Source: a virus (Duplodnaviria > Heunggongvirae > Uroviricota > Caudoviricetes). From it: a stretch of 12,246 nucleotides of DNA. Position numbers: made by a program. Positions 6,001-9,000 of the stretch are shown here, in pieces. Within the stretch, counting starts at the first letter, position 1. Every line of letters starts with the position of its first letter. The stretch lies in IMG/VR virus record IMGVR_UViG_2548876950_000019; one strand, written 5' to 3'.

Positions 6001-9000
6001 TTTAAAGCCTGTAAAACAAGACAATGGCTGCGCTCAAAAGCAGAACTGGCATACTTCTTCTACTCATGATATCCAGCCACAAACCTCTGTAGACCGCCAT
6101 CCGGCGGTCTTTTCATATCTATTCGCACCTTAAAGGTAATAAAAAACCAAATCTGGTTGATCTTTTTTTTGTGTCAGCACAAAATAACCGTAATCCCAAT
6201 ACTAATAACAGGGCTTACCATGGAAATCATTACACGTATTGATGCCGCAAAGCGCGGACTTAAACGCTACTACACCGGAAAATCATGTAAGCACGGACAT
6301 GACAGTGAACGCTGGGTTTACAACGGACACTGTGTTGAGTGCACCATGGAATCAAACCGTCGCATCAGGGCAGAGATTAAGCAGATCATGATTAATTCCT
6401 CCCCACAACATTCAAGCTGATAGCGGAGATTAATCATGAGCAGACATGCAACAGATTGGGCCTGGGAGACAGACCCAGGTAGCTCATCATTAAAGCTCAT
6501 ACTGCTCTCGATGGCTGACAGAGCCGATGAATATAACCTCTGCTACCCCAGCATAGAACGCCTCGTTAAAGACACTTGCCTGAATAAAAAAACCGTGCAG
6601 TCCGGGCTTATATCGCTCATGAAAATGGGGCTTATTTCAGATACCGGAGAGAGAAAGGGAGCGACGAAAAGAGTGCGGGTTTTCTCTCTTAATATAACCA
6701 AAAACGGGAACATTAAAGGCAACCGGGAAGGGTGTAATGAACCCGAAAACGGTAATGTTCCCGAAAACGGGAATATACCCAAAAACGGGATGTTGAATGA
6801 TCCCAAAAACGGGATGTTGAATGATCCCAAAAACGGGATCCAGAACCAGTCATATAACCAGTCATTTAACCAAGAGAGGGAGAGCAGGACAAAAACCGGG
6901 GATTCTGTGCCTCATGACCCCGGCGCAAACAACGCCGTGATGAATAACTTTGTTCCTCCTGGTGGGCCAGGGCAATTAGGCAAATTTGTCATGCATGAAC
7001 AATGGCAACCATCAGATGACTTTCTTCGGAAAAGCTCATTGCAGGGAATCTACCTGGACAGTCTGCCAACGGCACAGGAACTTGCAGAATTCAGAATTTA
7101 CTGGATGGCTGAGGGTAAGGCATACCATCAGGCACAGTGGGAGCAGAAGCTGGCAAGGCGGCTGCAGATTAGCAGACAGAAGCAATCAACATTACCTGAT
7201 AACAACGTTCCGCACTGGAACAGCCCTGAAGCGTGGGAGGATTTCTTGTGAACAACGTTTTTACCGCGATACAAAACCGTGACGGAGAAGCCCTTTCTCG
7301 CATGTCAGGTTATGAGCATCAGTACGTCAACAATGACAATGTGGTGAACATGTCAGCAGAGAGGCTTGTTGATGCCCTTTTCAAACAGCTGAAACAACTG
7401 TTTCCGGCGGCAGTGGTAACCAACCTGAAGACGCCAGAGCAGGAAGTCGCTGCAAAACAGCAGTGGATTGCTGCGTTTGCCGAAGGTGGGATCCGAACCC
7501 GTGAACAGGTTTCTGCTGGTATGCGCCACGCCCGCGCCAGTGAATCTCCGTTCTGGCCGTCGCCTGGGCAATTTATCAAGTGGTGCAAAGACAGCAAGAT
7601 GGTTCTTGGTGTCACCATTGACGATGTGATGGCGGAGTTTCACCGGTACAGCAAGGAAAAAAGTTTATATCCTGGCGGTCCCGAAAGATTCCCGTGGCGG
7701 CATCCGGTTATGTACTGGGTTGTATGTGATACCCGCCGCGCAATGTATCAGCGCCAGCTTAGCGAGATTGAGGTTGAGAAACACGCGCGCAGGTTGCTCG
7801 ATGATTGGGCGAAAAAGGTGGCTTCCGGACAGCAGATACCCGATCCGGTGATCAGCATACAGGCAAAGCCAGAACCCATGAGTACGCCTCCGGACACAGG
7901 GAGAGACGTTTACCACCCGCCAGGGCGAAGTTTCGGGTGCATGCCTAACGCCGCCACCCTGGGTGGAATAACACCGGCACAGTGGCTGATGGAGGAATAC
8001 AGGCGGGGAAAGGCGGCAGGATTTATCAAGTAATACCAGCGCGATAGCGCATTTTTTTACGTCTAGATGATTACCTGGTGGGTAATAAAATATACTAAAA
8101 TCTATTGATTTCGTGTCTTATGTGGTTTTTAATTACCTCGGGGGTAAATCATGAGAAAACAGATACAGGCTCTTGGTCGACTCAAAACAGGCCAGATGAA
8201 CAAAACAGAATCTGCGTATTGCCAGCACCTTGAGCAGCGTAAACGTGCAGGGGAAATCGCCTGGTATCGATTCGAGGGTCTCAAGCTGCGGTTAGCTGAC
8301 AACACGTTCTATACGCCCGATTTTGCTGTGATGCTCGCCACCGGCGAGATGGAACTGCACGAAGTGAAAGGTTTCTGGACCGACGACGCCAGGGTGAAAA
8401 CCAAAGTCGCCGCAGATCAATATCCGTTCCGAATCATCGGGGTAACGGTTAAACCAAAGAAAGCAGGTGGTGGCTGGAACATCGAAGAGTTCTGAATCGA
8501 CGATCTTTTTAGTTATCAATGTAATCAATAAGTTATGTGGATAAGCGAGGGTAAAGATGGAAAGTAATATCAAAGGGTTAGTTTCCGCCGGGCATGAGAT
8601 GGCTTCGGAACTGAAAGCAGAATGTGGTGCCGTTGATATGCGTAGTGTGGCAAAGCTGATCAGCGATTTGGCAACGCAACTGGAAGTGCAACTGGTGCGT
8701 GCTAATGCGCTGGCCGAAGACCAGCAGAAAGCGATTGAGTCAATTAAGCAGGCTGATGCAGCTGTTAAGTTGGCACACGAGAAGTTTTCAGCGCTGGCGG
8801 CGGAGAATGCGGGGCTGAAGTCTGGCGCTATGGACGAAATCAAGGTTATCAACCGTGGAGGGCAGGCATATTGCGTAAAAGATGGAGTGCAAGTCAATCC
8901 CATGTATGCAAGAGGGTGGAATGACTATCGCGCAAAGTCTCTGCAATCAGACACCCCAGCCACCGACGCTTTCCTGGCTGAAGTACGAGCGCAGGGCGTG

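What the first reader, a model, noticed from the sequence alone, without database searches (positions are those of the whole stretch)
8039..8150. A third operator-flanked promoter after the replication genes puts the downstream accessory operon under direct repressor control
After the P stop and a T-rich terminator-like element, two more perfect copies of the palindrome (8071-8085, 8133-8147) bracket a candidate promoter (TTGATT 8105-8110, TTTAAT 8128-8133). The second copy overlaps the -10/+1 and the SD of the DUF1064 gene. In canonical lambda the repressor controls only PL and PR, and genes after P are reached by antitermination. A dedicated repressor-controlled promoter here would mean the DUF1064/Ea22-like/DUF551/antirepressor genes are a separately regulated early unit. 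Alternatively this is the PL-type promoter of a second, rearranged prophage module.
Basis: partly seen in the sequence, partly recalled or inferred. Interest (0 to 1): 0.7.

Follow-up and report, generated by a model that had tools for sequence, protein, structure and literature searches.

The report
Repressor-controlled promoter after replication genes
Two repressor-binding palindromes really do bracket a promoter-like site after the replication genes, but this is the ordinary, conserved layout of epsilon15/phiV10-type prophages and the epsilon15 reference record already annotates the site.

Summary
TTACC-N5-GGTAA occurs six times in the window at one mismatch or fewer (0.17 expected). The sites form three pairs: the PL side, the rep/cro intergenic region, and 8071/8133 after the P stop.

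The window is not lambdoid. It is the early region of a Uetakevirus (epsilon15/phiV10-like). Its 194-aa repressor is identical to the phiV10 repressor and is a full-length homologue of the tetrameric SPC32H Rep (PDB 5D50).

The third site is colinear, base for base, with PL: distal operator, 19 nt, -35, 17 nt, -10, proximal operator, with operator starts 62 bp apart. It is conserved in all eight relatives examined from four host genera. All 20 half-site columns are invariant; none of the 10 spacer columns is. About 70 distinct IMG/VR sequences share the layout.

In phiV10 the palindrome also sits in other noncoding regions, mostly ahead of gene blocks. The epsilon15 RefSeq record annotates seven such "repressor" sites, including this locus.

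No transcript or binding data exist here, and the -10 lacks the key -11 A.

The AntA antirepressor lies in a foreign lambdoid segment with its own promoter, so it probably does not belong to this unit.

The parts
8039..8058 (+). Weak intrinsic-terminator-like element after the P stop (8033): GCGC-GATA-GCGC, then A and T7
   Evidence: Sequence. The 37-nt fold is -8.7 kcal/mol, z -2.4. Stem and T-run are invariant and the loop is variable in 8 relatives. It is annotated as a putative terminator in phiV10. It is below the terminator-scan threshold.
8071..8085 (.). Distal operator of the third pair, TTACC-TGGTG-GGTAA, centred about -62 from the predicted start
   Evidence: It is homologous to the epsilon15 site annotated 'protein_bind repressor' at 35906-35922.
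8086..8104 (+). A+T-rich 19-nt block between the distal operator and the -35 (TAAAATAT...CTA), partly conserved; possibly UP-element-like
   Evidence: 9 of 19 columns are invariant in 8 phages. The function is inferred only.
8105..8110 (+). Candidate -35 hexamer TTGATT
   Evidence: TTGA is invariant in 8 relatives. In 152 of 154 paired-operator sites in IMG/VR contigs (plus the window's own two pairs), TTGA sits exactly 19 nt after the distal operator in one orientation only. This is the same position as the PL TTGACA.
8119..8127 (+). Conserved TATGTGGTT element in the promoter spacer, shared with late-gene upstream regions of phiV10 and epsilon15
   Evidence: TATRTGGWT gives 7 hits in phiV10 against 1.2 expected. 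Role unknown.
8128..8133 (+). Candidate -10 hexamer TTTAAT (5 of 6 matches, but T instead of A at -11); its last base is the first base of the proximal operator
   Evidence: Not called by the consensus scan.
8133..8147 (.). Proximal operator TTACC-TCGGG-GGTAA, centred on the predicted +1 (about 8140) and containing the Shine-Dalgarno GGGGG (8140-8144)
8151..8495 (+). First gene of the unit: DUF1064 / PHROG 190 'Holliday junction resolvase'
   Evidence: Pfam and PHROGs E 2e-42. A RuvC-like resolvase takes this position in epsilon15 and Tyrion.
8557..10892 (+). Tightly packed accessory genes downstream (177 aa unknown, DUF7446, Ead/Ea22-like, 87 aa unknown, DUF551)
   Evidence: The consensus scan calls no strong terminator in this stretch.
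5100..5684 (-). Repressor gene (194 aa, two HTH regions, no S24 peptidase domain), the presumed ligand of the palindromes
   Evidence: Pfam. Full-length match to SPC32H Rep, PDB 5D50, E 4e-42. 100% identical to phiV10 p40.
4966..5042 (-). PL-type promoter with an operator pair 62 bp apart (4966-4980 proximal, 5028-5042 distal; TTGACA 5008-5003, AATTAT 4985-4980). This is the template for the geometry at 8071-8147.
   Evidence: (10 of 12 promoter match).
5740..5802 (.). rep/cro intergenic operators (5740-5754, 5757-5771 with 2 mismatches, 5788-5802 with 1 mismatch)
6125..6139 (.). Degenerate operator-like site after the cro terminator (GCACCTTAAAGGTAA); the position is conserved in relatives

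Best explanation
**What it is.** Window 8039-8150 is the conserved head of the post-replication (nin-like, resolvase-first) transcription unit of an epsilon15/phiV10-type temperate podovirus.

**How it most likely works.** The rightward early transcript covers cro, a small gene, the DnaT-like initiator and P. It is partly stopped at a weak hairpin-plus-T7 terminator. A separate sigma-70-type promoter (TTGATT, 17 nt, TTTAAT) then starts at about 8140.

That promoter is flanked by two copies of the phage repressor's operator, TTACC-N5-GGTAA, with centres 62 bp apart (about six helical turns). The proximal copy covers the end of the -10, the start site and the Shine-Dalgarno sequence. The distal copy sits at about -62.

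In the lysogen, the Rep protein is inferred to occupy both palindromes on the same face of the DNA and occlude the promoter. Rep is a tetramer in the SPC32H homologue. PL has an identical geometry and would be repressed the same way.

These phages have no annotated antiterminator. They carry the same palindrome in most other noncoding regions ahead of gene blocks. Repression therefore appears to be applied unit by unit rather than only at PL and PR.

**Shown here.** The motif and its statistics; the geometry; its conservation and synteny; homology of the repressor.

**Inferred.** Rep binds these sites; the promoter fires at about 8140; both sites are occupied cooperatively.
For: - **Motif statistics.** 6 sites against 0.17 expected.
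- **Same operator type around the repressor gene.** The same palindrome flanks the repressor gene on both sides, 2 or 3 copies per side.
- **Colinear with PL.** The region matches PL base for base: distal operator, 19 nt, TTGAnn, 17 nt, hexamer, proximal operator, 62-bp spacing. PL itself is a 10-of-12 consensus promoter.
- **Conserved in an unbiased sample.** Eight BLAST-chosen phages from Escherichia, Salmonella, Enterobacter and Klebsiella all have both perfect operators. This holds even though the upstream replication gene and the downstream gene differ.
- **Footprint of selection.** 20 of 20 half-site columns are invariant, against 0 of 10 N5 columns.
- **Wider sample.** About 70 distinct IMG/VR sequences share this layout. 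Some have different leaders and downstream genes, which shows a modular promoter-operator cassette.
- **Repressor homology.** Rep is a full-length homologue of SPC32H Rep. That protein is described as a tetramer that binds palindromic DNA (PMC9638917, PMC9986798).
- **Conserved recognition region.** The stretch NLVNRW..G.K..G...AR.IE is invariant across Reps that are only 42-44% identical overall. This matches the invariant half-site.
- **Existing annotation.** The epsilon15 RefSeq record annotates the homologous site as a repressor-binding site.
- **Genome-wide placement.** All 14 sites in phiV10 lie in noncoding regions, mostly ahead of gene blocks.
Against: - No transcript, footprint or reporter data were available for this locus. 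The primary SPC32H and epsilon15 papers are not in the held library.
- The -10 lacks the critical A at -11 in the 17- and 18-nt frames. The 19-nt frame has it but lacks T at -7. The consensus scan does not call this promoter.
- The predicted leader is only about 11 nt, with the Shine-Dalgarno at its very 5' end.
- The terminator has only a 4-bp stem. Readthrough from PR could therefore supply much of the expression.
- A conserved TATGTGGTT element in the spacer is shared with late-gene upstream regions. This hints at an additional, unknown input.
- That Rep, rather than Cro or another factor, is the ligand rests on location, annotation and homology only.
Confidence: 0.72

Rival explanations
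1. The two palindromes are real Rep sites but there is no functional promoter between them. They would act as a roadblock or terminator helper that stops PR readthrough in the lysogen. Alternatively they would be anchors for long-range looping to the rep/cro operators 2.3 kb away. The downstream genes would then be expressed only by readthrough from PR.
For: - The -10 lacks A at -11 and the scan does not call a promoter.
- The terminator is weak.
- The leader would be very short.
- The repressor family has a tetramerisation domain of a type linked to DNA looping (PMC9986798).
Against: - TTGA of the -35 is invariant, and the hexamer positions are identical to those of the strong PL.
- In 152 of 154 paired sites, TTGA sits exactly 19 nt after the distal operator in one orientation only.
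- A terminator is conserved immediately upstream. That makes sense only if transcription restarts.
Confidence: 0.13
2. The promoter is real but is not a simple constitutive early promoter. It would need a phage-encoded activator acting at the conserved TATGTGGTT spacer element, which it shares with the portal, tail-fibre and lysis upstream regions. Rep would be only one of two inputs, making this a 'middle' promoter.
For: - The motif is enriched (7 hits against 1.2 expected in phiV10). It lies on the transcribed strand in noncoding regions ahead of late gene blocks.
- The -10 is poor.
- The PL operon encodes a PerC-like activator. In complete relatives, the operon headed by this promoter ends in a 'transcriptional regulator'.
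Against: - The element sits in a different register relative to the -10-like hexamer here than at the late regions.
- A reasonable -35 is present here but absent at the late regions.
- No binding protein is identified.
Confidence: 0.1
3. One reading: this is the PL-type promoter of a second, rearranged prophage module joined to the first after gene P.
For: - The architecture is PL-like.
- The window is indeed mosaic further right.
Against: - The cassette is at the same position in every intact, sequenced Uetakevirus genome (phiV10, epsilon15, SPC32H, Tyrion, BUCT554 and others).
- Its flanks are Uetakevirus sequence on both sides up to about 10900.
- The mosaic junction lies in or near the DUF551 gene, about 2 kb downstream.
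Confidence: 0.02
4. The palindromes are bound mainly by another protein, such as the Cro-like product of 5839-6069 or a late regulator, and not by the maintenance repressor.
For: - Cro-type proteins usually share operators with the repressor. The 76-aa product matches PHROG 35 'transcriptional repressor'.
- No direct binding data were accessible.
Against: - The epsilon15 annotation assigns the sites to the repressor.
- The sites surround the rep gene in the classical way.
- The Rep recognition region is invariant, as is the half-site.
- Overexpressing the ZX5 repressor cut transcription of the endolysin and holin genes by more than 99.9% (PMC9782041).
Confidence: 0.03

Closest known systems
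Repressor-binding sites annotated in Salmonella phage epsilon15 (NC_004775.2), especially 35906-35922 upstream of gp43
   Same: Same palindrome (ATTACC-N5-GGTAAT). Same syntenic position: after the last replication gene and a GCGC hairpin plus T7, before a resolvase-type gene. Same 62-bp partner site and the same -35/-10 positions.
   Different: Only the distal copy is annotated in epsilon15, and no promoter is annotated there. The downstream gene is RuvC-like rather than DUF1064. The repressor is only about 42% identical. The N5 spacers are A/T-rich.
SPC32H Rep/Ant switch (PDB 5D50 and 5D4Z; Kim & Ryu 2013; Kim et al. 2016)
   Same: The window repressor aligns over its full length with SPC32H Rep (E 4e-42). 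SPC32H has the same operator pairs at the PL side, the rep/cro region and the post-replication locus.
   Different: The SPC32H-type Ant is not encoded in the window. The AntA/P22_AR_C protein at 11239-11862 has no match to any PDB chain and lies in a foreign lambdoid segment. What those papers say about this particular locus could not be checked, because they are not held.
Lambda PL/PR operators and CI
   Same: Operators overlap divergent early promoters on both sides of the repressor gene. There is cooperative multi-site binding.
   Different: This repressor has no S24 self-cleavage domain. Operators come as pairs 62 bp apart enclosing the promoter, not as tandem triplets. Operators also occur far outside the immunity region. 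The phiV10 and epsilon15 records annotate no N/Q-type antiterminator.
Mycobacteriophage L5 gp71 'stoperators' and the extra CB operators of N15/phiKO2/PY54 outside immB (from my own knowledge, not checked here)
   Same: One maintenance repressor has many sites spread over the genome, so that units other than PL and PR are silenced directly.
   Different: L5 stoperators are asymmetric 13-bp sites inside operons that block elongation in one orientation. The sites here are palindromes in noncoding regions, and at PL and this locus they are positioned on promoter cores. There is no homology of the proteins.

Membership tests
Uetakevirus (epsilon15/SPC32H/phiV10) Rep operator | Palindrome TTACC-N5-GGTAA | tested here: met
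   Two perfect copies at 8071-8085 and 8133-8147. Window total is 6 against 0.17 expected.
Uetakevirus (epsilon15/SPC32H/phiV10) Rep operator | A cognate Rep-family repressor is encoded in the same element | tested here: met
   5100-5684(-) matches PDB 5D50 Rep over its full length, E 4e-42. It is 100% identical to phiV10 p40, and the recognition region is invariant.
Uetakevirus (epsilon15/SPC32H/phiV10) Rep operator | Same syntenic position as a site annotated as repressor-binding in the type phage | tested here: met
   epsilon15 35906-35922 'protein_bind repressor' aligns with 8071-8085.
Uetakevirus (epsilon15/SPC32H/phiV10) Rep operator | Half-sites under purifying selection relative to spacer and flanks | tested here: met
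   20 of 20 half-site columns invariant against 0 of 10 N5 columns, in 8 phages chosen by BLAST rather than by motif.
Uetakevirus (epsilon15/SPC32H/phiV10) Rep operator | Physical binding of Rep | not testable with these tools
   Needs EMSA or footprinting. The primary papers are not held.
Sigma-70 promoter | -35 and -10 hexamers with 16-18 nt spacing, A at -11 and T at -7 | tested here: inconclusive
   TTGATT (4 of 6), 17 nt, TTTAAT (5 of 6), but T at -11. The scan does not call it. The hexamer positions are conserved and identical to PL.
Sigma-70 promoter | Mapped transcription start | not testable with these tools
   No transcript data are available.
Intrinsic (rho-independent) terminator | G+C-rich stem followed by a U-run | tested here: inconclusive
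   Only a 4-bp G+C stem plus U7. The 37-nt fold is -8.7 kcal/mol, z -2.4. It is below the scan threshold, but stem and T-run are invariant in 8 phages.
Lambdoid CI/OL-OR immunity system | CI-type repressor with an S24 (LexA-like) autocleavage domain | tested here: not met
   Pfam finds only HTH families in the 194-aa repressor.
Lambdoid CI/OL-OR immunity system | Operators confined to PL and PR | tested here: not met
   Sites also occur at 8071 and 8133 here, and at 14 noncoding positions in phiV10.
L5-type stoperators | Asymmetric sites inside operons, oriented with transcription | tested here: not met
   The sites are palindromic and lie in noncoding regions, mostly ahead of gene blocks.

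The most novel reading that the evidence does not exclude
Uetakeviruses would run their whole lytic programme without antitermination. Every transcription unit would be headed by its own Rep-operated promoter. At PL and at this post-replication promoter, a single Rep tetramer would clamp two palindromes exactly 62 bp apart and enclose the promoter in a micro-loop.

The post-replication promoter would additionally carry the TATGTGGTT element shared with the late-gene upstream regions. It would then be a dual-input 'middle' promoter: Rep-repressed and activator-dependent. That would link the early and late phases.
Probability: 0.25. Interest if true: 0.5.

Novelty: new member of a known kind. 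Interest (0 to 1): 0.25.

Why it matters
The result shows that this family of temperate podoviruses silences its post-replication genes directly at their own promoter rather than through a lambda-style antitermination cascade. The family includes O157-typing, serotype-converting and reporter phages such as phiV10, epsilon15 and SPC32H.

The strict 62-bp operator pairing at two promoters gives a concrete, testable geometry for how the unusual tetrameric Rep engages DNA.

For annotation, the practical message is that TTACC-N5-GGTAA marks the noncoding regions ahead of most gene blocks throughout these genomes.

It does not open a new question. The site is already annotated in the type phage.

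Tried and rejected
- **Primary literature.** I tried to read Kim & Ryu 2013 (J Virol), Kim et al. 2016 (PNAS) and Kropinski et al. 2007 (Virology) by DOI, PMC id and PubMed id. None is held.
- **Full-text searches.** Searches for SPC32H, epsilon15, phiV10, Uetakevirus and the palindrome itself found no paper that discusses this locus. The ZX5 paper mentions four predicted promoters but gives no positions in the text.
- **Covariation between operator and repressor specificity.** This test could not be done. All relatives found use the same half-site, and their recognition region is invariant.
- **LexA box near the AntA gene.** None above chance.
- **Rfam.** Nothing at 8039-8150.
- **IHF consensus at the promoter.** Only a partial match by eye, so I did not pursue it.
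- **Alternative promoter upstream of the distal operator** (TAAAAT at 8086). No usable -35, so rejected.
- **Chance and the 'second prophage PL' idea.** Both rejected.
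Full report
**1. The observation**

- The P-family gene (7233-8033; Pfam Phage_lambda_P) stops at 8033.
- A GCGC-GATA-GCGC hairpin (8039-8050) is followed by A and T7 (8052-8058).
- TTACCTGGTGGGTAA lies at 8071-8085.
- TTGATT lies at 8105-8110, followed by a 17-nt spacer.
- TTTAAT lies at 8128-8133.
- TTACCTCGGGGGTAA lies at 8133-8147.
- The ATG of a DUF1064 gene is at 8151.

The palindrome is really two 5-bp arms around a free 5-bp centre. 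At one mismatch or fewer, TTACC-N5-GGTAA occurs six times in the window. The expectation is 0.17, and none of 200 shuffles reached six.

The six sites form three pairs:

| Pair | Positions | Location |
|---|---|---|
| 1 | 4966 / 5028 | Downstream of the repressor gene, on the PL side |
| 2 | 5740 / 5788 | Between the repressor and the cro-like gene |
| 3 | 8071 / 8133 | After the P stop |

Pair 2 has a third, 2-mismatch site at 5757.

The terminator-like element is weak. It is a 4-bp stem in a 37-nt fold of -8.7 kcal/mol, z -2.4. The scan does not call it.

**2. What the window is**

The window is not lambdoid. Positions 1 to about 10900 are roughly 97% identical to Uetakevirus podoviruses such as phiV10, phiv142-3 and PAS61, which are relatives of Salmonella phage epsilon15.

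The repressor (5100-5684, minus strand, 194 aa) has only HTH domains and no peptidase domain. It is 100% identical to phiV10 p40. It aligns over its full length with SPC32H Rep (PDB 5D50, E 4e-42). That protein is described as a tetramer that binds palindromic sites and is disassembled by an antirepressor (PMC9638917; PMC9986798).

**3. Comparative test**

I took eight phages found by BLAST with 7990-8200, so they were not chosen for the motif. They were phiV10, epsilon15, SPC32H, Tyrion, BUCT554, two Klebsiella phages and the window itself.

All eight have two perfect palindromes with starts exactly 62 bp apart, between the last replication gene and the next gene. This holds although the upstream gene differs (P, a DnaT-like initiator, or another replication protein). 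The downstream gene differs too (DUF1064 or a RuvC-like resolvase).

Column by column:

| Element | Invariant columns |
|---|---|
| Operator half-sites | 20 of 20 |
| N5 spacers | 0 of 10 |
| Hairpin plus T-run | 16 of 20 |
| -35 hexamer | 4 of 6 (TTGA invariant) |

A pattern scan of IMG/VR for two palindromes 62 bp apart returned more than 120 stretches. Together with the window's own two pairs, these gave 154 sites. In 152 of them, TTGA lies exactly 19 nt after one operator, in one orientation only.

The sites fall into two classes. One is a PL type, with TTGACA, 17 nt, then AATTAT or GATTAT. The other is this post-replication type. Its hexamers are TTGATT, TTGAAA or TTGATA, then 17 nt, then TTTAAT, TTAAAT or ATAAAT.

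About 70 distinct sequences belong to the second class. Some have different leaders and downstream genes.

PL and the third site are thus the same cassette, base for base: distal operator, 19 nt, -35, 17 nt, -10 sharing one base with the proximal operator. PL itself is a 10-of-12 consensus promoter.

**4. Not a third site but one of many**

phiV10 has 14 sites at one mismatch or fewer, all in noncoding DNA:

- upstream of terS (two sites; the annotated terS start there is probably too early);
- upstream of the portal operon;
- downstream of p24 (20497);
- in the p24/tail-fibre divergent region;
- in the oac/lysis divergent region;
- upstream of int;
- two each at PL, the rep/cro region and the post-replication site;
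- one after the cro terminator.

The window holds the last of these in degenerate form, at 6125-6139.

The epsilon15 RefSeq record already annotates 'protein_bind: repressor, lysogeny' at seven loci. One of them is 35906-35922, which is the homologue of 8071-8085. The proximal copy and the promoter are not annotated there. phiV10 annotates only the terminator.

**5. Mechanism**

With the -10 at 8128-8133, the start would be near 8140. The proximal operator is then centred on +1 and covers the Shine-Dalgarno sequence. The distal operator is centred at about -62. PL has the same arrangement.

Sixty-two bp is about six helical turns, so both palindromes face the same side of the DNA. I infer that tetrameric Rep occupies both sites and occludes the promoter.

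The first gene is a resolvase-type nuclease (PHROG 190). The unit is therefore the functional analogue of lambda's nin region, but with its own repressed promoter. The phiV10 and epsilon15 records annotate no antiterminator.

**6. Weak points**

- No transcript or binding data exist for this locus.
- The -10 has T at -11 in both the 17- and 18-nt frames. The 19-nt frame has A at -11 but lacks T at -7.
- The predicted leader is only about 11 nt.
- The terminator is weak, so PR readthrough may contribute.
- A conserved TATGTGGTT element in the spacer (8119-8127) recurs ahead of the portal, tail-fibre and lysis gene blocks of phiV10 and epsilon15. TATRTGGWT gives 7 hits against 1.2 expected in phiV10. 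It may mark an additional activator input.

**7. The right end of the window**

Window 10080-12246 is 100% identical to the distal PL arm of a lambdoid prophage integrated next to torS, in the order DUF551, AntA, hypothetical, xis, int.

This segment carries no operator copy. It has a near-consensus promoter at 10996-11025. It also has a full-length Rfam sRNA-Xcc1 match at 11111-11199, just upstream of the AntA gene.

The window is the end of contig AIBK01000414.1, which stops inside xis. The join inside or near the DUF551 gene is therefore either a real recombinant or an assembly chimera.

In intact relatives the operon continues to a small 'transcriptional regulator' and a terminator, and then to operators and terS.

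The AntA antirepressor should therefore not be counted as part of the Rep-controlled unit.

**8. Verdict**

The core interpretation, direct repressor control of the post-replication unit, is strongly supported by comparison, but experiment has not tested it here.

It is the normal architecture of a known phage genus and is already annotated in the type phage. I rate it a new member of a known kind, of low to moderate interest.

Noticed in passing
window 11111-11199 (+): Full-length Rfam sRNA-Xcc1 (RF02221) match, 69.3 bits against a gathering score of 53, E 3e-11. It lies inside the mechanical ORF 11033-11236, immediately upstream of the AntA antirepressor gene (11239-11862).
   Followed up: no
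window 10996-11025 (+) and about 11055-11096: Near-consensus promoter TTGACA, 18 nt, TATATT (11 of 12). By eye, a hairpin plus T6 follows it, ahead of the sRNA-Xcc1 motif and AntA. The antirepressor therefore seems to have its own promoter and a structured leader. No LexA box was found above chance.
   Followed up: partly
window 10080-12246; L009 9001-11167: The right end of the window is 100% identical to the distal PL arm of a lambdoid prophage at torS (DUF551-AntA-hyp-xis-int). Positions 1 to about 10900 are Uetakevirus. The window is the last 12.2 kb of contig AIBK01000414.1, which ends inside xis. The join in or near the DUF551 gene is a recombinant or an assembly chimera.
   Followed up: partly
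window 8119-8127 and 8534-8542; phiV10 (L008) 3310, 20923, 24741, 35118, 35533: A second conserved motif, TATGTGGTT (TATRTGGWT), lies on the transcribed strand in the noncoding regions ahead of several gene blocks: portal, tail fibre, lysis, this promoter, and the gene after DUF1064. phiV10 has 7 hits against 1.2 expected. At the late regions it lies 7 nt upstream of a -10-like hexamer with no -35. It may be an activator site.
   Followed up: partly
window 6125-6139 and 6140-6170: A degenerate operator (GCACCTTAAAGGTAA) lies just after the strong cro terminator (6091-6110). Its position is conserved in the eight relatives, and the right half GGTAA is kept in all of them. A conserved AACCAnATnnGGTTGATCTTTTTT block follows. 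This may be a further control point before the replication genes.
   Followed up: partly
window 6690-6842: Six direct repeats of about 18-24 nt (core CCCAAAAACGGGA) lie inside the DnaT/HTH_36 initiator gene (6436-7251). They look like origin iterons, as in lambda gene O.
   Followed up: no
L008 (phiV10) 20480-20528: The operator at 20497 is the centre of a much longer inverted repeat, about 15 bp per arm by eye (GGAGTGCTTATATTTTACC-TTTGC-GGTAAATATAAGCACTCC). It lies downstream of p24. This is an unusual extended site or a bidirectional hairpin.
   Followed up: no
L008 (phiV10) 41-125: The annotated phiV10 terS start (41) would place a terminator hairpin and two Rep operators (87, 105) inside the coding sequence. 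Comparison with epsilon15 and BUCT554 suggests the true start is the ATG at about 122.
   Followed up: no
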